Shown here: positions 804-61,169 of the stretch, one piece after another
Layout of the letters: every line of letters begins with the position of its first letter
Position numbering within the stretch: the stretch's first letter is position 1
Origin: a virus
Reading direction: 5' to 3' (one strand)
Length of the DNA stretch: 64,000 bases
IMG/VR virus record: IMGVR_UViG_3300037042_004723
Span: 1 to 64,000 of that record
Notes under the pieces: generated by a model
What the model saw: only the letters and a program-made list of their open reading frames with translations
Databases searched by the model: none
Told to the model about the DNA's origin: nothing
Translations under genes and position numbers: made by a program

Positions 804-986
804 CTAATTCTCCTTTGATGGGCTGTAGTCGAAGGCTCTATCCAAGCATATGTCTCTGAGGTCGTCAAAGTCTTTGGTAAATTCTTCGTCCCGGCCCTCG
901 AATGGAATCTGCCTGGCGCGGAGGCTCTCGATCAATTTCCACATGAGCCAATACTGTTTTTTATTCAGCTGTTTCTTGTTGCTCAT
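804..986 (-). CDS. Hypothetical protein (60 aa)
   Basis: ORF track; packed between infC and the helicase. Confidence 0.6.
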   Translation of the reverse strand: MSNKKQLNKKQYWLMWKLIESLRARQIPFEGRDEEFTKDFDDLRDICLDRAFDYSPSKEN

Positions 987-3804
987 CTGATTTCGGCCTC
1001 AGCTGGATGATGTTCGAGAGATTCGACGGCTCGGTGATTTCGAGACCGCGCTGTCTAAGAAATGACTCGGCAAGCCGTTTGACGTCGGGCGCGCTGGCCT
1101 GGGCGGTTTCGATGAGGTCTGCGTTGGGGTCGCGGATACCCTGGCTCTGGGACTTCTTGACGCCGAGAACGTCCAGCATCACGGGGTCGCTGCCGTAGTC
1201 GGATAGGAGGAAGTAGGCCATCACTGGATCTGTCTGGCCATCACGGTGGACTCGTCCAATACATTGTTCGTGAACGCCGGGAGACCAGTCCAGCTCACCG
1301 AAAACGACGGTCCTGCACTTGAATTGGAGCCCGTCGAGGCCGGCGCCGGCTCGGAGGGACATCATCAAGATCTTCGACTCGCCGCTCAGGAACTTCTCCT
1401 TAGCGAGCTGCTTCTGGTTGTCGCTCTCGCTGCCGGTGTACATGACCGGTCCCAGGTCGGCCAGCTTGGCGTTGAGGATATCGTAGACCTCGCGATGCCA
1501 GGCGTACAGCAGGACAGGCTCATCGGCCTCGGCAAGCATCCTGACAAAGTCAGCGACGTAGGGGCTGTTGTGCGTGACTGTATAGTCATGCAGAAGAAAC
1601 AACCCGTCGCCGTCCAGAGCGAATCCATGAAAAGTTCCACGACCGACAGATTTGATTTTGATCCCTGACCTGAGTGGGTCTTTAACCTGCCGCCGTGGTG
1701 ATGATTTTTTTCTCACAATACGAAGCGGAAGATTTTCAACTCCATTGCCATAGACGCTAACAAGGAAGGCGGGGAAGCTTTTGCCTGTTTGGTTTTTGGC
1801 TGTGATTTTTTTGACTTTGCTTGCGAGCCCAAGAGACATCGCGAGTTGACAGATCTGATCTGCCAGATGTTCCCATTTGCTGCTGATCGTGTAGCACCCA
1901 GGGCAGTTTAGGTGTCCATCGGTATCTAGTAACCCAGCTAGCAGCAGTTCTCTGTTCCGCCTGGAGTTAATCAGATATTTGTCCGGTATGTGCTTATTTT
2001 GAAATACTTTTAGTTCTTTCAGTAACTGAATCAGTTTATTATGACTAACGAATCCACGGCGACCGACGACTGAATTTCCGGTCCATCCTGGTGATATTCT
2101 GTATGTAGGAGCCGTCCGATCTGGCGCTTTTACTGTGACGAGAAGGCCGTACTGTTTAGCGAAATCACACATGAAATCTGCGATTTCTTCATCGGCAGAA
2201 GTAACAGCAGCAGAATCGCTGGTTCCATCACCTAGCCACAGTCCAAGGAAGTATGGATCTAGCGGTACCGATACCTCAGGGAATTCAATGCCAACCTTAA
2301 ATCCCTTTAGTAAATGATGAAAGTATGGCTTCTTACTTAGGTATTCGTCGACAGATATCTCAATATGGTCACCTTTGATGTATGGTGCGAAGGCGTTTTT
2401 GTTGTTCTTCCTAAGAACGCCAGTTATTTTGAGTGCTAATATGTGATCGCCGTTTACTCTGTATGGTGCAAACAATGGCCTGCGAGAGGTCGATGACACT
2501 TCATGCATCTCGCCACGCCCAGATGACGTAGTGAGAATCTTTCTCGGCTTGCTGTCAGGTCCCATGAGAAGATCGCCGGGCTTTAGATTTTCGACCGCTT
2601 CCGTTGTTCCGTCATACTTTATTACTCGTGTCCCTGGAGCCAAACATTTGGCGATTCCTGTAGCCTGCCTGACGATGTTGGACAGCTCCTCTGCCGCCTG
2701 CATCTTGACGCCCTTTTTGAGGGTGTTTTGAGACAGGATGATTTTCGCAAGCTCGGCAGCCGAATCCTCGATTTTACTGAGGGCTTCGGTGTCGGCTTCG
2801 ACTGCCTGGACGATCTTCGAGAGGGGTTCCAGCTCCCGGCCGACTTCGCTTCGGGTCCGGCGGATCATGAGGCCCTGTTCGCGCATGTAGGATCCGAACG
2901 ACTTGGGGTCCCGAATCTTGGGCCGGTCGGAGTTGTATGAGTCGCACCACTCGCGCGTGAACTCGTCCTTTTGTCCAAGGCAGCCAGGCTCGATCGCGTT
3001 CATGACGCTGAATATCTCGCCGCCGTAGTTGAAGATAGGCGTGGCACTGAGGCCGACTCTCAGTGAGGCGCCCTCCGAGACGTGCATGGCAGCGCTGTAT
3101 TTTTGGGACTCGGCGCGGCGTAGCTCCTGGACCTCGTCGTAGATGACGGTCTTCACAACGCCGGCAAGGGTTTCCGCCCAACCACCGAGCTTGTGGTAGT
3201 TGATGATCAGGACGTCCGGGAACAGCACTTTCTCCCCGCCCTTTCCCTTGCAGACGTCGTAGACGGTGCCTTTTTTGATGACGTGGGTCCTCAGTTTGGG
3301 GAGGAACTTGTCGATCTCTTTGGCCCACTGCTTTGGCAAGTGCGCCAACGTGACCACGAGGGCGGGCAGGTTCGACGGGTCGGTAAGCGTGCAGATGCTT
3401 GTCGCTGTTTTGCCAAGGCCGACATCATCGGCGACCAGGAGCCGGCCGGTTCGCATGGCCAGGTCGGCTGCGATTCTCTGATATTCGCGTGGCTGGAGGG
3501 CCAGCTCGAATTCAGGCGCGGTGTAATCGCCTTCTTGCACCTGATGGACGAGAAGCTCGACATTGCGATGCTCCTCGGTCTTCTCTTCCAGGCTGCGGCG
3601 GTCTGCCTTGGACATCTCCATCGGGTATCTGATCAGGAACCACCCGAGTTCGTGTGAATTCTCGGCCGACGCCGACAGGGACAGCTTGCCGTACTGGTTT
3701 TTGTTGATCTTCTGGAAGACGCGCTTGAGGCGCAGGGCTACCTGCGGCTCGGTCTCAATGATCCAGTACCTGCCATTGAGGGTGACGGTTCCATACGATC
3801 TCAC
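961..3804 (-). CDS. SNF2-family helicase/ATPase containing an intein
   Basis: LVADDVGLGKT (motif I), VIYDEVQ (II), GLSATP (III), SLRAGAGLDGLQ (V), EQCIGRVHRDGQ (VI). Confidence 0.92.
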   Translation of the reverse strand: MRSYGTVTLNGRYWIIETEPQVALRLKRVFQKINKNQYGKLSLSASAENSHELGWFLIRYPMEMSKADRRSLEEKTEEHRNVELLVHQVQEGDYTAPEFELALQPREYQRIAADLAMRTGRLLVADDVGLGKTATSICTLTDPSNLPALVVTLAHLPKQWAKEIDKFLPKLRTHVIKKGTVYDVCKGKGGEKVLFPDVLIINYHKLGGWAETLAGVVKTVIYDEVQELRRAESQKYSAAMHVSEGASLRVGLSATPIFNYGGEIFSVMNAIEPGCLGQKDEFTREWCDSYNSDRPKIRDPKSFGSYMREQGLMIRRTRSEVGRELEPLSKIVQAVEADTEALSKIEDSAAELAKIILSQNTLKKGVKMQAAEELSNIVRQATGIAKCLAPGTRVIKYDGTTEAVENLKPGDLLMGPDSKPRKILTTSSGRGEMHEVSSTSRRPLFAPYRVNGDHILALKITGVLRKNNKNAFAPYIKGDHIEISVDEYLSKKPYFHHLLKGFKVGIEFPEVSVPLDPYFLGLWLGDGTSDSAAVTSADEEIADFMCDFAKQYGLLVTVKAPDRTAPTYRISPGWTGNSVVGRRGFVSHNKLIQLLKELKVFQNKHIPDKYLINSRRNRELLLAGLLDTDGHLNCPGCYTISSKWEHLADQICQLAMSLGLASKVKKITAKNQTGKSFPAFLVSVYGNGVENLPLRIVRKKSSPRRQVKDPLRSGIKIKSVGRGTFHGFALDGDGLFLLHDYTVTHNSPYVADFVRMLAEADEPVLLYAWHREVYDILNAKLADLGPVMYTGSESDNQKQLAKEKFLSGESKILMMSLRAGAGLDGLQFKCRTVVFGELDWSPGVHEQCIGRVHRDGQTDPVMAYFLLSDYGSDPVMLDVLGVKKSQSQGIRDPNADLIETAQASAPDVKRLAESFLRQRGLEITEPSNLSNIIQLRPKSDEQQETAE
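1567..2646 (-). mobile_element. Intein (360 aa) with LAGLIDADG homing endonuclease in the SNF2 helicase
   Basis: GIAK|CLAPGT ... HDYTVTHN|SPYV; LGLWLGDG and LAGLLDTDG motifs; visibly more AT-rich than the exteins. Confidence 0.93.
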
Positions 3805-9018: not shown

Positions 9019-10701
9019 TTATTCGCCATTGCCGGCCAGCTTCCTGCCCCACTGCTCGGCCTTGGCTACCTTGTCTGGAGGTCCCATGAATCTCAGCTTG
9101 CCACCACCGTAGACGTGCCCGATGACCAACATGCCCTTGTCGACAAACGTCTGCGCCATCCTGATAACGTCTGCTCGGGCGAAGGCTCCAGGGACGACCT
9201 CATAGGCCTGCACTTCTTCCTGGTCCGTGAACTCTGTCTTGCCGTTGGTTGGCCCGAAGACGACGCCTAGCTTGTCTGGTCGATCCATGGCAGTGCCCAT
9301 GCCGTACTGGTACAGGCAGTAGAACCCGCGACAGTGGCCAGGCCTGGTGTCGTAGATGGAGCATCCGCGCTCATTGAGGCTCGGGCAGGTTCCCCAGGCA
9401 GGCTTGTTGATTTCCTCGACGCCGAAGACCGTGCAGCAGACCGTACAGTTATGGACGGCGGCCCCTTCTGCGACATAGGATTCATCGTCTTCTACGGATA
9501 GGTTGAACACTTCAATCTGATCGCTTTTTTCAGCGACAGCCTGTACCGGCGTACACCAATAGCCATCCCAGAAAAAGCTTTGCGTTGACGACCAGGCTGT
9601 TTCGATTGGCCGAACTTTGACGGAGTATGAAGCCAGGACGTTGGCATAAGAGGCTGGGATAACTATGTACCATCTGGCGATTCCGAACGTGTACCCGTTG
9701 GACAAACCGGCAAACGAGATGGATGCAGGAATTCCGAGCGAATGGCATAACGCCTGAGCGTCGAGAGCCAACCCACGGTTCACGGTTGTTATCCTGATTT
9801 TGTTCTTGTCGTCACAACTACCGTCCGTGTCTATATATCCGCCTAGGAGATGGAGTCTTTCTTCTCTTGACCAGCCGAAGACGTCTTCATTAAGTTGTTT
9901 GCCGCGTGATCCTTGCCCGCCTTGGCTTACAAGCCAGGCTGCCATTTCTTGGTCGTATGTGTAAATTCTGATCGCTTCTTGATCTTCGCTCATGTTGTAT
10001 ATTTTTGGGACGTTCGCAAGATCTGCTTCGGCGAGAGTGTCTAGCAGCCGGTCGATGTGTGACTCTTCATTGGTACCAGCTGCCAATCCGAATCCTGCCA
10101 GGACATATTCACCTTGGCGCTTCAAACGTTCCTTGATGATATGTCCGTCACCGATATAATATCCGAGAATGCGTGCGCGTTGAGGCCCTGGTCCATTTTT
10201 TGACTGGTGCGTGATTGGTATTGGCGACAGCAGGTAGTCGCCTACTCTGATCTCTTCGGCCGTTGTCCATTGCGTTTGCCAGTCGATTGTTTTGTTACAC
10301 CTGGAACATGTTTTGGCATCGCTCGACGGCCTGTGACCGATACGCTTGCCATTTACCGTTCCGTGGCACGAGCGGACGCTGTTTCGGCGCAGGATCAGGA
10401 ATGGGTGTTCGTTGGTGGCTGTAATTTCCGGTAGGCCTGATGCCTTAATTGACAACGCCCCGTCATCGCTTATCAGTCTCATGGTTGCAGTTACCATTTT
10501 CAAGTTGCCGCGATGAGTTCTGACGAGGTCTCCTATGGCCAGCTCATCGATCGGCCTGTAACCATTCGCCGTTCTAACAAGCGTTCCAGCCACGAAACAG
10601 CCATCGCATGGTCTGACGGCCTGGACGACAGGCAGTGACCGGCGGGGCTTCGCCTGCACCGCCTTCTTGGCCTTGCGCCGTTCTCTATTATTCCGGCCCA
10701 T
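9019..10701 (-). CDS. YkgJ/CxxCxxCC-type cysteine-cluster protein containing an intein
   Basis: Spliced extein reads RPCDG-CTVCC...TCPSLNERGCSIYDTRPGHCRGFYC; start at MGRNNRERRK preferred over the track start 10779. Confidence 0.8.
   Translation of the reverse strand: MGRNNRERRKAKKAVQAKPRRSLPVVQAVRPCDGCFVAGTLVRTANGYRPIDELAIGDLVRTHRGNLKMVTATMRLISDDGALSIKASGLPEITATNEHPFLILRRNSVRSCHGTVNGKRIGHRPSSDAKTCSRCNKTIDWQTQWTTAEEIRVGDYLLSPIPITHQSKNGPGPQRARILGYYIGDGHIIKERLKRQGEYVLAGFGLAAGTNEESHIDRLLDTLAEADLANVPKIYNMSEDQEAIRIYTYDQEMAAWLVSQGGQGSRGKQLNEDVFGWSREERLHLLGGYIDTDGSCDDKNKIRITTVNRGLALDAQALCHSLGIPASISFAGLSNGYTFGIARWYIVIPASYANVLASYSVKVRPIETAWSSTQSFFWDGYWCTPVQAVAEKSDQIEVFNLSVEDDESYVAEGAAVHNCTVCCTVFGVEEINKPAWGTCPSLNERGCSIYDTRPGHCRGFYCLYQYGMGTAMDRPDKLGVVFGPTNGKTEFTDQEEVQAYEVVPGAFARADVIRMAQTFVDKGMLVIGHVYGGGKLRFMGPPDKVAKAEQWGRKLAGNGE
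9448..10599 (-). mobile_element. Intein (384 aa) with LAGLIDADG endonuclease
   Basis: PCDG|CFVAGTLV ... SYVAEGAAVHN|CTVCC; ITATNEHPF block B; LGYYIGDG and LGGYIDTDG. Confidence 0.93.
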
Positions 10702-10921
10702 ATAGTCCGATCCGGAGTTCCATCTTGAGAATGGCTGCGATTTTGGCGAGCGTCTGAATGGTGAGATTTGCCCTCCCATTCAAAATCTGAGAGACGCGAG
10801 CCTCGGTGACGTTCAGATGCGCAGCCAGGTCGCGCTGGGTCATGCCGCTCGCCTCGATCGCTGCCGCCAGCATGCTCGCAACGGCCGAGATGGATTTCTG
10901 ACTATGGCTATTCCTGCCCAT
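10688..10921 (-). CDS. XRE-family HTH protein
   Basis: GMTQRDLAAHLNVTEARVSQILNGRANLTIQTL. Confidence 0.85.
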   Translation of the reverse strand: MGRNSHSQKSISAVASMLAAAIEASGMTQRDLAAHLNVTEARVSQILNGRANLTIQTLAKIAAILKMELRIGLYGPE

Positions 10922-21328: not shown

Positions 21329-21793
21329 ATGGCAAGTAAGAAGACGCGAAGGAGCATCAGCATCACGGGGGGTGCGTACTGGGCGCTCAAGGAGCGTTGT
21401 GACAGGGATGGGGTGAGCATGAGCGGGGTAACGGAGAAGCTGGTGCGCGAGTTCCTGGGGCGGCCAGATCGTGATGAGGTTGCGGCTGCGGCTGCGGTGG
21501 CTCCCAAGGCTCCGCCCATGGATCCGCCCCGCCAGCATGTGAAGATGGTGCCGGTGAGGATCGTCGTCGCGCGGCCTCCGAAGTCAACGAAGCCCGCCAA
21601 GCCTGCCCACGCTCCTCCGGTCGTCGCGGCCAAGCCGGTGCTGCGTACCAAGCCGGTGCTGCGTGAGCCGGCTGACCGAGCGGAGCAGATCAGAGCCGCT
21701 GCCGCCCGCATCGCTGCCCGCAAGGCCGATGAGCCGGTCAAGAAGACCGGGGTGCCTGTGGCCGACCTGGCCTCGAAGATCTTCACGTTCTAG
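21329..21793 (+). CDS. Ribbon-helix-helix (CopG-like) DNA-binding protein with Pro/Ala/Lys-rich tail
   Basis: RRSISITGGAYWALKERCDRDGVSMSGVTEKLVREFL. Confidence 0.65.
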   Translation: MASKKTRRSISITGGAYWALKERCDRDGVSMSGVTEKLVREFLGRPDRDEVAAAAAVAPKAPPMDPPRQHVKMVPVRIVVARPPKSTKPAKPAHAPPVVAAKPVLRTKPVLREPADRAEQIRAAAARIAARKADEPVKKTGVPVADLASKIFTF

Positions 21794-22389
21794 AGCAGGT
21801 CGATGGCGGCGTTGATGCGGTCCTCCTTGAAGCTGAGGTACTGCGAGGTGGAGGTGATCCACTTGTGACCCAGCGCCCCCTGAAGCTGCTTGAGGTCACC
21901 GCCCAAGAGGTCGTACATCCGCTCGGCGTAGGTCTTCCTCATGCAGTGGGTGCCAAGGGTTCCCGTCAGCCCGATGGCGGCGAAGGCCGTATCGAACATC
22001 CGCCATACCTGGATGCGGCTGATGCGCTTTCGTGCGCGGCTACAGAACAAGGGGGTGTCGTCCTGGCATCCCCATACCTGGAGCGCCGACAGCCACGCCG
22101 ACACGGCAGCCTTGGCCTTGGCGTTGAGGCGGACGATTCTACCTTCGCCCTTGCCCTTCATGGCGCAGCGGCGAACGGCTACCGAGTCGACAATGGCCCC
22201 GTGCTGGAGTACGTCGCCCACCGTGAGGGACAGGAGTTCGGACACCCGGAAGCCGGTGTTGAGGCCGAGGGTGAAGAAGGTGGCGTTGCGGAGGCCGAGG
22301 CCCTGGCAGCTACGCTGGTCTTCGTCACTGGTAAGGTGCGCGAGGACTCGTTCTGTTTCAGACTTCGTGAGCGGCCGGCATCCCTTCAT
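21790..22389 (-). CDS. Tyrosine recombinase (catalytic domain only)
   Basis: TGFRVSELL (R), KGKG (K), THCMRK (HxxR), LGH, YL; CTGAAA-17-TGTAGG-6-ATG. Confidence 0.92.
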   Translation of the reverse strand: MKGCRPLTKSETERVLAHLTSDEDQRSCQGLGLRNATFFTLGLNTGFRVSELLSLTVGDVLQHGAIVDSVAVRRCAMKGKGEGRIVRLNAKAKAAVSAWLSALQVWGCQDDTPLFCSRARKRISRIQVWRMFDTAFAAIGLTGTLGTHCMRKTYAERMYDLLGGDLKQLQGALGHKWITSTSQYLSFKEDRINAAIDLL

Positions 22390-31023: not shown

Positions 31024-32463
31024 ATGAACGCGAACAACTCGAACAACAAGGTGAACACCATGGATGACTCCGCCGCCCGCTTCTCGCTCCTCGAACTTGA
31101 CAACGGTACGGTCGCCCCGGCGGCTACCCTGGCCCCGGTCCTGACCGTGGTCCCCGCCCCCCGCGTGGAGGGTGGCGTGTGTGCCGAGGGCAAGGCCCGC
31201 GCTCAGGCTGATCAGGCCGACGCCGAGGCGGCTGGCTGGTCCCTCAAGCCCCCGGTCTATGCCATCGGCAGTCGGGTCAACTCCACGGGCGTGGCGAACT
31301 TCCGCGCCAGTCGCCAGGACCACGATGACAAGGCCAGCGTCGGCCAGGCGTGCGAGAGGCTCATCGACATCGTGAAGGCCGAGGACCGCCGGGATATCGT
31401 CATCCAGGTCCCCACGCTCTCGATGTTCCCCGACGGGCGCATCACCCGTGGCGGTGGCCCCCTCGCTGTCTCGGAGCGCGCCTTCAACGGCGTGGGCACG
31501 CACATCACCCCGGGCGGGGCTGGCTACCTCCGCTCGTGTCCGCCGGAGCTTCGCGCCGTGAATTTCAACCATTGGGCGAAGGAGGGTTTCCGCGAGGACG
31601 GCCGGGCCACGTCCAAGGCAATCGAGGCGTGGGAGGAGGGTGGCGAGGTCGGCTCCCAGCCCGGCCCCGTCATGAAGGCGAAGGAGGTCACCCTCCGGAC
31701 CCGCCTGAACCACGCCAGCGGCAAGCGTGAGGCGTGGAGCTTCGTCGGCCCGAAGTACGGGGCGCACGATGTCGATGCCATCGCCGAGCAGGTGATGCGC
31801 TCCGAGGCCATCCCGGCGGACGCCAAGTGCGACATCGTGTACGACGGCTACCGTGCGCGTATCGACGTGCTGTTCCACACGAACATCCAGCCGGAGAAGG
31901 CTGTCGCTGGCGAGATTTTCAAGGCTGGCATCATGCTCAAGACTTCCGACGACGGCTCGGGGAGCATCCAGGTCAGCGCGCAGGTGTTCCGCAACCTCTG
32001 CCTGAACCTCATCATCATCGACCATGCCAAGGATATGGTCACCCGCCGCAAGCACATCGGCACGGGCATCGAGGCGGCTGTCGCCGACGGTATCGCCACG
32101 GCCATGGGCAAGGTCAAGGTGTTCGCGGACAAGTGGTCCGAGGCGTCCCTGGAGAACGTGCTGGAGAAGTACGGTGCCCACGACATCGAGGCCGTGATGC
32201 GCGGTCTGGTGTTCAACAAGGTGGTTCACGTCTCGGGTGTCCGTCCCGACGACATGTTCGAGCGGTTGATGCGCGCCTACCAGGCCGAGCCTGGCTATGG
32301 CAAGACCGCCATCGTCAACGCGGTCACCCGCGCAGCCCACAGCGAGACGTGGGGCTCATGGGCGGACGTGGAGGACCTGGAGCGCAAGGGTGGGGAGCTT
32401 CTCTTCGCCAAGCAGTGGTCTGTTTCTATCCCCGACGACGAGCGCGAGGGGCTGTCGTACTAG
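31024..32463 (+). CDS. DUF932-family protein
   Basis: TSDDGSGSIQV...FRNLCLN signature; leaderless class-1 start. Confidence 0.7.
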   Translation: MNANNSNNKVNTMDDSAARFSLLELDNGTVAPAATLAPVLTVVPAPRVEGGVCAEGKARAQADQADAEAAGWSLKPPVYAIGSRVNSTGVANFRASRQDHDDKASVGQACERLIDIVKAEDRRDIVIQVPTLSMFPDGRITRGGGPLAVSERAFNGVGTHITPGGAGYLRSCPPELRAVNFNHWAKEGFREDGRATSKAIEAWEEGGEVGSQPGPVMKAKEVTLRTRLNHASGKREAWSFVGPKYGAHDVDAIAEQVMRSEAIPADAKCDIVYDGYRARIDVLFHTNIQPEKAVAGEIFKAGIMLKTSDDGSGSIQVSAQVFRNLCLNLIIIDHAKDMVTRRKHIGTGIEAAVADGIATAMGKVKVFADKWSEASLENVLEKYGAHDIEAVMRGLVFNKVVHVSGVRPDDMFERLMRAYQAEPGYGKTAIVNAVTRAAHSETWGSWADVEDLERKGGELLFAKQWSVSIPDDEREGLSY

Positions 32464-32520
32464 GCCCGAGGGGCGGGGCGGTTTCCTGAAAAAAGGAGCC
32501 GCCTCAGTTGTAGTGTCTTT

Positions 32521-32680
32521 GTGACCGGAGGGCGTCGATACCGAACTGGCTGGAGTGATCCCGGTGTCAGGCCGGAGGGTAGGCTGGAGTTCTAGACCCA
32601 GCTGATCTCCGGGGCAGAGGGGCCACGCTGTCACCCGTGCATGGGTGCGAAGGCCAGGGCGAGGAGCCCTCCGGTTGCTT
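32521..32680 (+). ncRNA. Putative structured ncRNA (~160 nt)
   Basis: Class-1 promoter predicts +1 at 32521; 5' GUGACCGGAGGGC pairs fully with GCCCUCCGGUUGC (32666-78); internal hairpins; no ATG at +1. Confidence 0.7.
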
Positions 32681-32762
32681 TCGTATATAGAGTTTTCTTC
32701 GGTATGGAGTTTTCTTCGCTGCGGGCGCTGAAAATTAAGGCGAGCCCAGTTGTAGTAGAGCC

Positions 32763-33047
32763 ATGAGAGACGCCAAGCCCTACTGGACCAAGCACCCCGC
32801 CTACCTGGAGCACTGGCCGTTCGCCACCATGGCGCACGACTCGGGCGACTGGGAGGCATTCGTCGTGGACTACAAGCGAACCCAGGACTACAGCGGCGGG
32901 AAGTTCATCGAGTTCTTCTGGGACGGGGATTTTCAGGAGGCGATCAGCTACACGCCGACCTCGAACCCGGCTGAGTGCCTCGCCCAGTTCGCCGTGTTCT
33001 GGCTGGAAACGGAGTACGACTGGGGCAACGCTGAAAAATCCAGCTAG
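32763..33047 (+). CDS. Hypothetical aromatic-rich protein
   Basis: Class-1 promoter 6 nt before ATG. Confidence 0.75.
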   Translation: MRDAKPYWTKHPAYLEHWPFATMAHDSGDWEAFVVDYKRTQDYSGGKFIEFFWDGDFQEAISYTPTSNPAECLAQFAVFWLETEYDWGNAEKSS

Positions 33048-40870: not shown

Positions 40871-40939
40871 GCCCTTACTACAACTGAGCTAGCTAGCATT
40901 TTCGTTGAAAATTCAGGCTGGCTCAGTTGTAGTTACGTT

Positions 40940-41046
40940 GCTTGCTTGGCGCGTACGTGGACAGCCCTCAAGCCCGAAGTAGTCGTAGGCTGGCGACGAA
41001 AGGGTGAGAGCCACGTATGGGGGTTCGATTCCCCCTGGCATTACTA
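40940..41046 (+). ncRNA. Putative ncRNA with a tRNA-like T-arm
   Basis: TTGAAA-17-TGTAGT (40928), no ATG; UACGUGG/CCACGUA helix then GGGGG-UUCGAUU-CCCCC. Confidence 0.65.
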
Positions 41047-41205
41047 TTTGAAAATTGAAGTAGCGGTTCAGTCCGTCATAAAAGGCACCCTCCCCAGCCG
41101 GTACTCAGGCCATGTCATGGGAGCTACTGACCTTCAATTTTCTGTTTCAAGTGGAAAACTCTAAGAGTTTTCTCCCCGTCACCTGGCCCGAAGGCCGGGG
41201 CTGCA

Positions 41206-53802: not shown

Positions 53803-54306
53803 CTAGCGGAGCGCCGCCAGCTTCTCGGCGATTGCCTTGCGGCGGCGGGTGGAGGTGGCCGGGGACCATCCGACCAGCGCGCCCGCCTCGGTCTGGCCCA
53901 TGCCCTGATTGATTGCCCGGATGAAGGCCCGTTCCTCGTCGGTGAGCGTGGCGAGCGCCATGGCAAGCCACTGGCCTTCCTCGGTGCGCAGGGCATCGGC
54001 CCGGCCATCGTCGCCCGGAAGGCCATCCACGATGCGCGTGGGCTCGCCTTCCTCGCCCTTGGTCACCACGTCATGCGAGCGGTATCCCTCAGCCTTGACG
54101 TGGTTACGGGCCACGTTGCCCGCGAGCTTGGCGCAGAACGTCGCCACCTTGCCCCGGGCGGCATCGAACGCCTCGCCCTTCTCCAGGCACTCCACCACGG
54201 AATCGTTGAGGATATCCTCAAGGTCGGCACGCTTGCCGACAGCGCGGACAATGGCGACGGTCATGGCGGTGAGGACTGCGGAGGTCATGTCGGTGTGGTT
54301 CAGCAT
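53803..54306 (-). CDS. ECF-like sigma-70 factor, paralog 3
   Basis: Closely similar to paralog 2; TTGCAT-17-TAAGGT-7-ATG. Confidence 0.8.
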   Translation of the reverse strand: MLNHTDMTSAVLTAMTVAIVRAVGKRADLEDILNDSVVECLEKGEAFDAARGKVATFCAKLAGNVARNHVKAEGYRSHDVVTKGEEGEPTRIVDGLPGDDGRADALRTEEGQWLAMALATLTDEERAFIRAINQGMGQTEAGALVGWSPATSTRRRKAIAEKLAALR

Positions 54307-58030: not shown

Positions 58031-58588
58031 CTACTCGTCGCCGTCCTCGTCGCCGTCCTCGCCGGACACAGCGGCCTTGAGCGCGGCGAGGAGCGCGGCC
58101 CGCTTGCGCGTGGCCTTGACGGCGTTCCAGCCGAACGCCTTGCCAGCGTCCCCGATGGACTCGCCCCGGATGAGGGCCCGGACGAAGGCCCGGTCGGTCT
58201 CGTCCTGGATCTCGGAGATCGCCAGGGCCAGATCTTGAGCCTCCATCGAACGGGCCACCTCGACCCGCCCATCGGCACCGGGCAGGGACTCGACGATCAT
58301 CTCGCCGCCATTCTCGCCCTCATCGTCGCTCGCCGTCACCACGTCATGCGAGCGGTAGCCCTCGGCCTTCATGTGGTTGCGGGCCGTGTTCCCGGCGATC
58401 TTGCAGCAGAAGTTGCTGAAGTTGCCACGGGCCGCGTCGAAGCTCTCGATCTGCTCCATGACGCGCACGCACGAATCGTTCAGGATGTCGTTCAGGTCGG
58501 CATTCTTGCCAACGGCGCGGACGATCGCGCCCGTCATGGATCCGATGGTGGTGGTGGTGATGATGGTCGGGACCGTGTGATTCAGCAT
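58031..58588 (-). CDS. ECF-like sigma-70 factor, paralog 4
   Basis: FDAARGNFSNF...ARNHMK; HTH IGDAGKAFGWNAVKATR. Confidence 0.8.
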   Translation of the reverse strand: MLNHTVPTIITTTTIGSMTGAIVRAVGKNADLNDILNDSCVRVMEQIESFDAARGNFSNFCCKIAGNTARNHMKAEGYRSHDVVTASDDEGENGGEMIVESLPGADGRVEVARSMEAQDLALAISEIQDETDRAFVRALIRGESIGDAGKAFGWNAVKATRKRAALLAALKAAVSGEDGDEDGDE

Positions 58589-60347: not shown

Positions 60348-60923
60348 CTAGATCTTGTCGGCCAGAGCGGCCGTGATCGAGCGGTAGCGGCGCGTCGTGG
60401 TCGCGGGTGACCAGCCCAAGAGGGCGCCGGCCTCGCACTGGCCCATGCCCCCGGCCATCGCATCCAGGAACGTCTGCGAGTCAGCGTCAAGCGCGAGCAT
60501 GGCATCGGCCAGAGCCTTGCGCTCGAAGTAGCGCACCATGTCAGCGGCGCCATCCACGCCCACGAGCGTATCGACGAGCGCGACCTCGGAGTCATCGTCG
60601 CCGAGGTTCGTCTCGGAGTCGTGGTTACGGTTCGCGTGAGCCTTGCGCCAGTTGCGCGCAGCGTTCGCAGCGATGCGGCACGCCCACGAGACGATCGACC
60701 CCTTCGACCAGTCGAACGACTCGGCGTGCTCCATCATGCTCACGAGCGCATCCTGCACAACGTCAGACGTTGCGCTCGTCTCGCCGATGGTACGCTCGAC
60801 GGTGCGCGCCATGGTCTTGAACAGGTCGGGGTTGCCGATCTGGCTCATGACGTCCAAGCGAGTCTCGCTCGACGCGCCCGTGGAAGTGAAACCGTTGTGA
60901 CCGATGTTCGTGTGATTCACCAT
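60348..60923 (-). CDS. ECF-like sigma-70 factor, paralog 5
   Basis: DVVQDALV...FDWSKGSIVSWACRIAANAARNWRK; MGQCEAGALLGWSPATTTRR. Confidence 0.85.
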   Translation of the reverse strand: MVNHTNIGHNGFTSTGASSETRLDVMSQIGNPDLFKTMARTVERTIGETSATSDVVQDALVSMMEHAESFDWSKGSIVSWACRIAANAARNWRKAHANRNHDSETNLGDDDSEVALVDTLVGVDGAADMVRYFERKALADAMLALDADSQTFLDAMAGGMGQCEAGALLGWSPATTTRRYRSITAALADKI

Positions 60924-61169
60924 ACATAGCATGGCTATCTTTACAATGATACATCAATCGACTAACAAATCACTGTCAAGATCTGTGGATCCTGTTAGGA
61001 AAACTCTATGGTGCGAGGCCATATGGAGTTTTCCGCTTAAGCCAGTTGGCCCGGCGGGGCCGGTCGGGCTACTTCTTGAAGGTGGCCGTAGCCAGATCGA
61101 GCGTGATGCACTCGCCGGTCGCCGGATCTACGAAGTAGACCGGGGCCGTGGGGCGCTTGGCCCGCTTCA

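What the first reader, a model, noticed from the sequence alone, without database searches (positions are those of the whole stretch)
32521..32680. Promoter-defined ~160-nt ncRNA closed by a 13-bp terminal helix
Seen: predicted +1 coincides exactly with the first base of a fully paired 13-bp 5'/3' helix. Internal helices include GAUACCG/CGGUGUC, CCGGAG/CUCCGG with nested GCUGG/CCAGC, and CACCC/GGGUG. There is no start codon at +1. I do not recognise the family. The coincidence of +1 and the helix end independently supports the promoter model.
Basis: partly seen in the sequence, partly recalled or inferred. Interest (0 to 1): 0.72.

Follow-up and report, generated by a model that had tools for sequence, protein, structure and literature searches.

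The report
Phage small RNA with two K-turns
The flagged stretch is a real, promoter-driven structured non-coding RNA gene (about 160-190 nt) of an uncultivated 197-kb T4-like phage; six related metagenomic phages keep its helices through compensatory base changes, it matches no known RNA family, and its function is unknown.

Summary

**Promoter and 5' end.** The window carries about 60 copies of TGAAAAT-N11-CAGTTGTAGT-N6-ATG, a promoter for leaderless genes. One copy (32487-32514) is followed at the ATG position by G32521, the first base of a 13-bp helix that closes 32521-32678.

**Homologues.** Six were recovered beside the same DUF932-like gene: three 158-nt forms and three of about 100 nt. 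All start 6-7 nt after the -10 motif.

**Structure.**
- In P1, 5 of 13 pairs change on both sides and 98.9% of cells pair.
- Inner helices H2 and P3 also covary.
- A covariance model built only from the short forms finds the window element end to end.
- The long forms are 92-98% identical, against 78-85% for the neighbouring gene.

**Corrections.**
- +1 is GTG, a possible start, but the frame is 5 codons in 5 of 7 copies.
- The core reads P1, K-turn-like module, 13-bp helix, second K-turn-like module, variable apical domain. This is a box C/D-like order of motifs.

Rfam gives no match. This scan had not noted the sequence on other DNA. Transcription and function remain untested.

The parts
32487..32493 (+). 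-35-like element TGAAAAA of the phage promoter class
   Evidence: Part of TGAAAAT-N11-CAGTTGTAGT, found 66 times in the window against 1.7 expected. Conserved in 14 relatives at this site.
32505..32514 (+). -10-region motif CAGTTGTAGT, followed by the 6-nt spacer 32515-32520
   Evidence: 49 of 63 such motifs in the genome are followed by ATG after exactly 6 nt.
32521..32533 (+). P1 5' arm. Its first base is the predicted transcription start (GTG).
   Evidence: All 7 homologues start P1 6-7 nt after the -10 motif.
32534..32538 (+). K-turn-like module 1, bulged strand: 3-nt loop GUC, then G17 A18
   Evidence: G-N-Y-G-A follows P1 in 7 of 7 copies. The covariance model aligns it to the model's GA.
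32539..32552 (+). H2 5' strand (14 nt), pairing with 32651-32663
   Evidence: Compensatory change at 23-140. The equivalent helix in the short forms has 3 compensatory pairs.
32553..32554 (+). K-turn-like module 2, non-bulged strand: G33 A34, directly before P3
   Evidence: Invariant GA in 7 of 7 copies.
32555..32568 (+). P3 5' strand, pairing with 32613-32626
   Evidence: Compensatory changes at 36-105 and 39-102. In the short forms 4 of 6 P3 pairs are compensatory.
32572..32612 (+). Apical hairpin B (CCGGAGG/UCUCCGG, with nested GGCUGG/CCAGCU and a UCUAGA loop), found only in the long form
   Evidence: Pair probability >=0.98. Invariant among the 4 long copies. Absent from the short forms.
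32613..32626 (+). P3 3' strand
32627..32650 (+). K-turn-like module 2, bulged strand: GCU, then inserted hairpin C (32630-32648, loop GUGCAU), then G129 A130
   Evidence: The short forms have a plain 3-nt loop plus GA here. The model aligns G129 A130 to the GA. The hairpin C loop changes UGCA to CGCG in L127.
32651..32663 (+). H2 3' strand (13 nt; it begins the conserved GAAGGC motif)
   Evidence: This spacer is 13 nt in all copies. Covariation.
32664..32665 (+). K-turn-like module 1, non-bulged strand: G144 A145, directly before the P1 3' arm
   Evidence: Invariant in 7 of 7 copies.
32666..32678 (+). P1 3' arm
   Evidence: 98.9% of cells paired and 5 of 13 pairs compensatory. Sliding the partner gives only 30-48% paired.
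32679..32714 (+). 3' tail with two direct GAGTTTTC cassette-end sites (32690-32697 and 32707-32714). The 3' end probably lies in this stretch.
   Evidence: GAGTTTTC, or its palindrome, ends nearly every cassette. It follows P1 by 7-11 nt in the 6 copies with sequence there; L130 ends at the contig end. The next promoter starts at about 32729.

Best explanation
This is a stand-alone small-RNA gene of a T4-like phage.

**Transcription unit.** One of the phage's own leaderless-gene promoters (TGAAAAA 32487-32493, CAGTTGTAGT 32505-32514) starts transcription at G32521. The RNA runs to 32678 and probably a little further, to the GAGUUUUC sites at 32690/32707.

**Fold.** It forms a rod closed by a 13-bp helix between its two ends (P1). 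Inside P1 lie:
- a K-turn-like module (3-nt bulge plus tandem G.A/A.G);
- a 13-bp imperfect helix (H2);
- a second, mirror-image K-turn-like module;
- a variable apical domain (P3). In this lineage P3 carries two extra hairpins (B and C).

**Status of each step.**
- Shown here: the promoter geometry, conservation of the RNA, covariation of P1, H2 and P3, strand specificity and the lack of a conserved ORF.
- Inferred from sequence only: the two K-turns.
- Inferred: that it is transcribed as a discrete RNA.
- Inferred, and the weakest step: that it acts as a compact protein-binding scaffold or decoy. The host or phage partner would recognise K-turns, and P1 would shield both ends. The timing (during host take-over) is likewise inferred, from the gene's place in a region of small ORFs that resembles an early region.
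For: **Promoter and +1**
- The motif occurs 66 times against 1.7 expected. ATG lies exactly 6 nt downstream in 49 of 63 copies.
- All 7 homologues put the first base of P1 at that position.
- The promoter is conserved in 14 relatives.

**Conserved structure**
- P1: 98.9% of cells paired and 5 of 13 pairs compensatory; 0-1 of 500 shuffles reach these values.
- Long forms: compensatory changes at 23-140, 36-105 and 39-102.
- Short forms: 88% of cells paired, 13 of 34 pairs compensatory, 0 of 500 shuffles as high.
- Model R2, built without any long form, finds window 32521-32678 end to end (27.7 bits, E about 0.003) and only there in the 197-kb genome.

**Selection**
- The element is 92-98% identical across long forms. 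The adjacent gene is 78-85% identical, with 75-80% identity at third codon positions.

**Strand**
- The plus strand folds at -86.3 kcal/mol against -67.9 for the minus strand. Short forms give z = -3.7 to -4.9 on plus and -1.1 to -2.7 on minus.

**K-turn modules**
- All four GA dinucleotides are invariant in 7 of 7 copies, with fixed spacing: 13-bp P1 + 3 nt + GA, spacers of 12-14 and 13 nt.
- Junction bases are invariant in 14 of 16 columns, against 24 of 68 paired columns (Fisher p = 1.8e-4).
- The pattern fits the published definition of a K-turn: a 3-nt bulge followed on its 3' side by G.A and A.G pairs, with C-G at position -1 (PMC5061560).
Against:
- There are only 7 copies, and 4 of them are near-identical.
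- The helix models were derived from these same sequences, so the slid-partner controls are biased in their favour.
- K-turns are inferred from sequence alone. The phage encodes no L7Ae-family protein and the host is unknown.
- Close relatives carry, behind the same promoter, either a bare hairpin (L125, L002) or unrelated RNAs (types A and C). The specific RNA is therefore dispensable for the phage clade.
- No canonical terminator is detected.
Confidence: 0.6

Rival explanations
1. It is only an elaborated terminator or insulator. P1 plus its tail ends transcription coming from the DUF932-like gene and from the local promoter. The interior is an expansion with no function of its own.
For: - In L125 and L002 the same promoter is followed just by a P1-like hairpin with a U-rich tail.
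- The window's 3' arm and tail align with the plain terminator of L001.
- P1 sits where other cassettes have a GC-rich hairpin before GAGTTTTC.
Against: - The interior is more conserved than the neighbouring gene.
- Its helices covary, and 14 of 16 junction bases are invariant.
- The tail of the short forms is not U-rich.
- The scan finds no terminator.
Confidence: 0.15
2. It is a trans-acting antisense RNA that pairs with the major capsid (gp23-like) mRNA and delays or tunes capsid synthesis.
For: - RNA nt 14-30 (16 of 17) and 62-91 (24 of 30) are complementary to the plus-strand gp23-like gene at genome 152837-152853 and 152642-152671.
- Two hits this strong within 400 nt were reached by 1 of 300 shuffles.
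Against: - Each hit alone is at chance level (78 of 300 shuffles), and the test was post hoc.
- Both segments lie inside stable helices.
- Segment 14-30 differs at 4 positions in L128 and is unrelated in the short forms.
Confidence: 0.07
3. It is a leaderless mini-ORF: GTG at +1 is translated into a 5-24-residue peptide.
For: - GTG sits at +1, and GTG or TTG is used at other leaderless cassettes.
- Five of 7 copies have a 5-codon frame ending in the UGA of the first K-turn module.
Against: - The peptides differ (MTGGR, MTSKC, MTGRR, or 24 residues).
- Changes in codons 3-5 are compensated on the 3' arm, which points to selection on the RNA.
- The start codon is buried in a 13-bp helix.
Confidence: 0.04
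4. It is a DNA-level element, such as a recombination site, cruciform or protein-binding inverted repeat of the cassette array, rather than an RNA.
For: - It lies in an array of cassettes bounded by GAAAACTC/GAGTTTTC sites, with a tyrosine recombinase at the head of the array.
- The unit is swapped between otherwise syntenic genomes: L131 has the same downstream gene as the window, and the DUF932-like gene lies upstream in both.
Against: - Conserved G-U pairs would be A-C mismatches on the other strand, and the plus strand is favoured by 18-20 kcal/mol.
- A conserved promoter is positioned exactly at the first base of the helix.
Confidence: 0.04

Closest known systems
Box C/D small RNAs of archaea and eukaryotes (two K-turns: C/D and C'/D')
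   Same: - The order of motifs along the RNA is the same: terminal stem, C-like (G-R-U-G-A), 12-14-nt spacer, D'-like (CUGA/GGA), internal stem, C'-like (N-N-U-G-A), 13-nt spacer, D-like (GGA/UGA), terminal stem.
- Both have K-turn-type junctions with a 3-nt bulge and tandem G.A pairs.
   Different: - The virus is bacterial: its sigma-70-type factors and promoter geometry say so.
- The phage has no fibrillarin or L7Ae.
- The two spacers pair with each other instead of being free guides.
- The box sequences deviate from the consensus, the terminal stem is 13 bp, and no Rfam snoRNA/sRNA model matches.
K-turn-containing bacterial RNAs (SAM-I, lysine and T-box leaders, OLE RNA)
   Same: They use a K-turn next to a closing helix as an architectural or protein-binding element (PMC5061560; PMC9723947, title and abstract seen).
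   Different: - There is no downstream gene under its control, because the next gene has its own leaderless promoter.
- No Rfam match.
- Two mirrored K-turn modules separated by one 13-bp helix.
phi29 packaging RNA (pRNA, RF00044)
   Same: A phage RNA of similar size whose 5' and 3' ends pair in a helix, with a junction and loops that could mediate RNA-RNA contacts. Here the loops have palindromic cores: UCUAGA, and UGCA changing to CGCG.
   Different: - No covariance-model match.
- The phage is T4-like (gp23-type capsid), and from my own knowledge no pRNA is known in T4-type packaging.
- Loop-loop pairing was not tested.
T4 small stable RNAs rnaC/rnaD; 6S RNA; bacterial Y RNAs (YrlA)
   Same: All are stable structured RNAs, closed by or rich in long helices, that act as protein partners or have unknown function. 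T4-type phages are known to encode orphan small RNAs (from my own knowledge).
   Different: - No Rfam hit to 6S, YrlA or any other family.
- The phage has no Ro60 or RtcB.
- The unit has its own promoter rather than being processed from a tRNA cluster.

Membership tests
Any Rfam 15 family | Covariance-model score at or above the family's gathering threshold | tested here: not met
   No hit in the whole window at gathering thresholds. At E<=10 the region 32440-32770 gives only two hits, to lncRNA models (E 0.3 and 2, far below their gathering scores), over the promoter region (32463-32528) rather than the RNA body. Nothing on the homologous elements in 11 related loci.
K-turn motif | Canonical helix, 3-nt bulge, then tandem G.A and A.G pairs opening a non-canonical helix | tested here: met
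   Met at sequence level, at two sites, in 7 of 7 copies. Site 1 is P1 | G-N-Y | G-A, with G-A | P1 opposite. Site 2 is P3 | N-N-U (plus hairpin C in the long form) | G-A, with G-A | P3 opposite. Definition taken from PMC5061560.
K-turn motif | Kinked three-dimensional geometry (about 50 degrees), induced by Mg2+, tertiary contacts or an L7Ae-type protein | not testable with these tools
   No RNA 3D or probing tool is available. Position 3b.3n is A.G (the HmKt-7 type, which folds in Mg2+ by rule 2 of PMC5061560) at site 1 of the short forms and site 2 of the long forms. Elsewhere it is U.G, U.U, A.U, A.A or G.U.
Box C/D guide RNA | Boxes C (RUGAUGA) and D (CUGA) near the ends, with internal C'/D' boxes | tested here: inconclusive
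   The short forms have GAUGAAG twice, plus CUGA and UGGA. The long forms have UYGAUAC, CUGGA, GCGAAGG and GGA/UGA. The topology matches; the box sequences match only in part.
Box C/D guide RNA | Single-stranded 10-21-nt guides upstream of D and D' that pair with a target RNA | tested here: not met
   The two spacers pair with each other in all copies, with compensatory changes.
Box C/D guide RNA | Partner proteins fibrillarin, Nop5 and L7Ae available | tested here: not met
   The phage genome has no match to PF01269 or PF01248. Nop5 was not searched. The host appears to be bacterial (Sigma70_r2 proteins). The host genome itself is unknown.
Intrinsic terminator | Short GC-rich hairpin immediately followed by a U-tract | tested here: not met
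   No terminator-like site in 32300-32900. P1 encloses 132 nt, and the U4 run lies 11 nt downstream, inside GAGUUUUC.
Leaderless protein-coding cassette of this phage | Start codon at +1 opening a conserved reading frame | tested here: not met
   GTG is present, but the frame is 5 codons in 5 of 7 copies and 24 in the other two, with no conserved peptide.
Riboswitch or other cis-regulatory leader | Sits in the 5' UTR of the gene it controls | tested here: not met
   The next gene (ATG 32763) has its own complete promoter at 32729-32756, with ATG at its +1. Two cassette-end sites lie between it and the RNA.

The most novel reading that the evidence does not exclude
A bacterial virus encodes an RNA with the box C/D-type double K-turn layout. 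In this reading it assembles with a K-turn-binding protein, or self-associates through its palindromic loops, into a particle that reprograms host or phage gene expression early in infection. The site would be one of several interchangeable 'RNA cassettes' (types A, B, C) that phages of this clade swap in a dedicated promoter-terminator slot, much as accessory anti-host genes are swapped.
Probability: 0.15. Interest if true: 0.8.

Novelty: new variant of a known kind. Interest (0 to 1): 0.62.

Why it matters
Structured non-coding RNAs of large uncultivated phages are almost unexplored.

- This one has a promoter-defined 5' end, covariation-supported helices and invariant junction bases that read as two K-turns. 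That makes it a well-defined candidate for a new ribonucleoprotein or RNA-only device in a bacterial virus.
- The locus is a conserved promoter/terminator slot. In sister phages it holds at least three unrelated structured RNAs or a bare hairpin. This suggests that phages exchange small-RNA cassettes as they exchange accessory protein genes.
- The finding also gives independent support to the leaderless-promoter model for the whole 40-kb cassette region. The RNA's closing helix starts exactly where leaderless start codons do, in seven genomes.

Tried and rejected
**Searches that found nothing**
- Rfam at gathering and at permissive thresholds, on the window and on relatives.
- BLAST of the region and of the flanking protein against 50,697 phage records.
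- Self-BLAST in the 197-kb genome: no second copy.
- Single-sequence model R1 in three related viral genomes. The one hit (G001, E 2.5) lies inside a collagen-like coding region and was rejected.
- Exact-pattern scans of viral contigs: the promoter plus GTGACC, the GAAGGC..GGTTRC..GAGTTTTC pattern and the hairpin B core gave only chance matches in unrelated coding DNA.
- The downstream 94-aa protein has no relatives in viral contigs.
- The DUF932-like protein has no relatives in GTDB genomes.
- Three literature searches found no description of this RNA or phage group.

**Partner proteins**
- The phage genome has no match to L7Ae, fibrillarin, Ro60/TROVE or RtcB.

**Function of the neighbouring DUF932-like gene**
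- Only a sub-threshold DUF932 hit in Pfam.
- No NCBIfam family and no PDB relative by sequence.
- The Atlas lists only viral DUF932 clusters.
- An AlphaFold model (mean pLDDT 76) has no significant Foldseek match in the PDB. The best is a Whirly protein at E 0.047, which was rejected.

**Readings rejected**
- The 24-codon ORF.
- A hairpin spanning the -35 element: weak support only, not pursued.

Full report
**Context.** The window is the first 64 kb of a single-contig 197,279-bp virus record with 57% G+C.
- It encodes a gp23-type major capsid protein that is at most 41% identical to that of any phage in the collection.
- It also encodes intein-bearing helicases, a tyrosine recombinase and several proteins with Sigma-70 region 2.
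- It is therefore a deep-branching T4-like virus of an unknown bacterium.

**The cassette region.** Between about 20 and 60 kb almost every small gene is its own cassette.
- Each starts with the motif TGAAAAT-N11-CAGTTGTAGT. The core occurs 66 times, against 1.7 expected.
- In 49 of the 63 genome copies that carry the -35-like part, ATG follows after exactly six bases. These are leaderless mRNAs.
- Cassettes end with a GC-rich hairpin and then GAGTTTTC, or with the palindrome GAAAACTC-N3-GAGTTTTC between convergent units.
- In my early notes I wrote N13 for the spacer. Recounting on the sequence gives N11, which means 16-17 bp between the TGAAAA and TGTAGT hexamers.

**The observation.**
- The motif lies at 32487-32493 and 32505-32514, followed by six bases. 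G32521 is then both the position of a leaderless start and the first base of a 13-pair helix with 32666-32678. The helix has 11 Watson-Crick pairs plus U-G and G-U.
- The plus strand folds at -86.3 kcal/mol (z = -3.57; none of 200 shuffles as good). The minus strand folds at -67.9.
The third, GAUACCG/CGGUGUC, has probability 0.00 in the ensemble.
- Two direct GAGTTTTC sites follow at 32690 and 32707. The next promoter and its ATG (32763) come directly after.
- The unit thus has the full anatomy of a cassette, with a structured RNA in place of the ORF.

**Homologues.**
- Nothing was found by Rfam, by BLAST against phage records or by a single-sequence covariance model in three related viral genomes.
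- I then used the upstream gene, a DUF932-like protein, as an anchor to fetch relatives from viral contigs, metagenome contigs, and by protein search plus contig look-up.
- The promoter after this gene is conserved in 14 relatives. What follows it differs.
  - Three loci (L123, L127, L128) carry a 158-nt copy of the window element.
  - Three (L130, L007, L011) carry a form of about 100 nt.
  - L125/L126 and L002/L003/L010 carry only a P1-like hairpin with a U-rich tail.
  - L124, L129, L131, L134, L008 and L009 carry an unrelated RNA of about 95 nt with three hairpins ('type A').
  - L135/L136 carry a third RNA ('type C'), again closed by a helix that starts at +1.
- L131 has the same downstream gene as the window but holds type A.

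**Evidence that the structure is selected.**
- *P1.* Across the seven copies, 98.9% of cells pair and 5 of 13 pairs change on both sides. For example, GGAGGGC/GCCCUCC becomes GGACGAC/GUCGUCC or AGCAAG/CUUGCU. Sliding the partner by 1-3 columns leaves 30-48% paired.
- *Long forms.* Among the four long copies the few substitutions are concentrated in compensatory positions: 23-140 G-C to U-A, 36-105 U-A to C-G, and 39-102 U-G to A-U.
- *Short forms.* Among the three short forms the P1/H2/P3 model has 88% of cells paired and 13 of 34 compensatory pairs; none of 500 shuffles reaches this. RNAfold on L130 returns exactly this architecture on its own.
- *Independent detection.* Model R2, built from the short forms only, recovers all four long copies with exact ends. 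In the window it hits 32521-32678 at 27.7 bits, E about 0.003, and it hits nowhere else in the genome.
- *Conservation.* The long copies are 92-98% identical. The adjacent gene is 78-85% identical, with 75-80% identity at third codon positions.
- *Strand.* The short forms fold far better on the plus strand: -42 to -56 against -24 to -36 kcal/mol.
- *Coding.* The frame from +1 is 5 codons in five copies. The peptides differ, and the codon changes are compensated in the 3' arm.

**Architecture.** All seven copies share a fixed geometry.
- P1 (13 bp) is followed by three bases (G-N-Y) and then GA.
- After 12-14 bases comes GA, directly before P3.
- After P3 come three bases (N-N-U) and GA. In the long form hairpin C is inserted here.
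- After exactly 13 bases comes GA, directly before the P1 3' arm.
- The two spacers pair with each other to form H2.
- Each junction is a canonical helix, a 3-nt bulge and tandem G.A/A.G pairs opposite a GA. This is the published definition of a K-turn, including the usual C-G pair at position -1 (PMC5061560).
- The junction bases are invariant in 14 of 16 columns among the short forms, against 24 of 68 paired columns and 2 of 16 apical-loop columns (p = 1.8e-4).
- The order C-like, spacer, D'-like, stem, C'-like, spacer, D-like inside a terminal stem is that of box C/D RNAs.
- Three things argue against membership of that family. The spacers are not free guides, the virus is bacterial, and it encodes no fibrillarin or L7Ae. 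I therefore report a resemblance in layout, not membership. The K-turn fold itself is inferred from sequence, not shown.

**How it probably works.**
- *Shown:* a conserved transcription-unit anatomy and a conserved RNA fold.
- *Inferred:* the phage promoter fires at G32521. The RNA folds into a rod whose two ends are locked in P1. Two kinks compact it and offer protein-binding sites. The apical domain is free to vary, from about 30 nt to about 90 nt with hairpins B and C in this lineage.
- The most likely role is as a scaffold or decoy for a K-turn-recognising host or phage protein. Early timing is suggested only by the gene's place in a region of small ORFs that resembles an early region.
- Because sister phages replace it with other RNAs or a bare hairpin, it is accessory rather than core.
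- I put about 0.85 on 'real conserved structured RNA', about 0.55 on the K-turns and much less on the specific role.

**Rivals.**
- A pure terminator or insulator fits the minimal forms and the alignment of the 3' arm with L001's terminator. It does not fit the conservation and covariation of the interior.
- An antisense role against the capsid mRNA rests on two complementary segments in the gp23-like gene. Jointly they were reached by 1 of 300 shuffles, but each alone is at chance level, the test was post hoc, and the segments are not conserved in other variants.
- A mini-ORF and a DNA-level element are unlikely, for the reasons given above.

**Limits.**
- No expression data could be obtained.
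- There are only seven copies, four of them close.
- The helix models were derived from the same sequences they were tested on.
- The host is unknown.
- The neighbouring protein gave no functional lead.
- This scan had not noted this sequence on other DNA.

Noticed in passing
window 23600-57400, both strands: About 60 single-gene cassettes, each with TGAAAAT-N11-CAGTTGTAGT-N6-ATG (leaderless start). In the genome, 49 of 63 motif copies have ATG at exactly +7 from the end of the motif. Divergent pairs overlap back to back.
   Followed up: partly
window 20722-63750 (101 sites in the genome up to 65.2 kb): GAGTTTTC, or the palindrome GAAAACTC-N3-GAGTTTTC (also with 11-32-nt spacers), ends nearly every cassette, usually 5-11 nt after a GC-rich hairpin. 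Its role is open: a sequence-specific termination or processing signal, or a recombination site.
   Followed up: partly
L124:2995-3092, L129:2688-2783, L131:2693-2787, L134:2692-2786, L008:3002-3092, L009:2980-3073: 'Type A': a different RNA of about 95 nt with three hairpins, behind the same promoter after the DUF932-like gene. It has two compensatory pairs and a conserved loop UGGUUUAC/UGGUUCAGG. No Rfam match.
   Followed up: partly
L135:2713-2831 and L136 (same sequence): 'Type C': a third RNA in the same slot. It is closed by GUGAGGCGGG/CCCGCCUCAC starting at +1, followed by a U-rich tail and GAGTTTTC. It contains GGCGUUGAU...GGAGCU, which resembles the first K-turn-like module of the window RNA.
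   Followed up: partly
L125:2995-3026, L002:4493-4522: Minimal forms: the conserved promoter fires straight into a 9-bp P1-like hairpin (loops CCAACCG and GAGA) with a U-rich tail. In L002 the 5' arm overlaps the -10/+1 spacer.
   Followed up: partly
window 40934-41060 (+): Another promoter of the same class without an ORF. The transcript would contain a perfect T-arm-like hairpin GGGGG-UUCGAUU-CCCCC. It is not alignable with type A.
   Followed up: partly
window 26787(+), 44575(+), 46232(+), 56742(-), 30940(-): Further promoter copies not followed by a start codon at +1. They may give leadered mRNAs or more non-coding units.
   Followed up: no
genome 152642-152671 and 152837-152853 (L137:643-672 and 838-854): Two segments of the RNA (nt 62-91, 24 of 30; nt 14-30, 16 of 17) are antisense to the gp23-like major capsid gene. 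The paired occurrence was reached by 1 of 300 shuffles, but it is not conserved in other RNA variants.
   Followed up: partly
window 32476-32504: The -35 element lies in the loop of a possible hairpin (GGCGG..UCC / GGA..CCGCC) that could end the upstream gene's transcript. Covariation across 14 relatives is weak.
   Followed up: partly
window 961-3804(-) and 9019-10779(-): An SNF2-type helicase interrupted by an intein with a LAGLIDADG homing endonuclease, and a second intein-containing protein.
   Followed up: no
window 58031-58588(-), 60348-60932(-), 53803-54306(-); 21790-22389(-): Phage proteins with Sigma-70 region 2 (two above the Pfam cut-off, one below), and a 199-aa tyrosine recombinase at the head of the cassette array.
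   Followed up: partly
L007:3844-3916(-): A tRNA gene (72 bits) about 520 nt downstream of the short-form RNA in the 72.9-kb relative.
   Followed up: no
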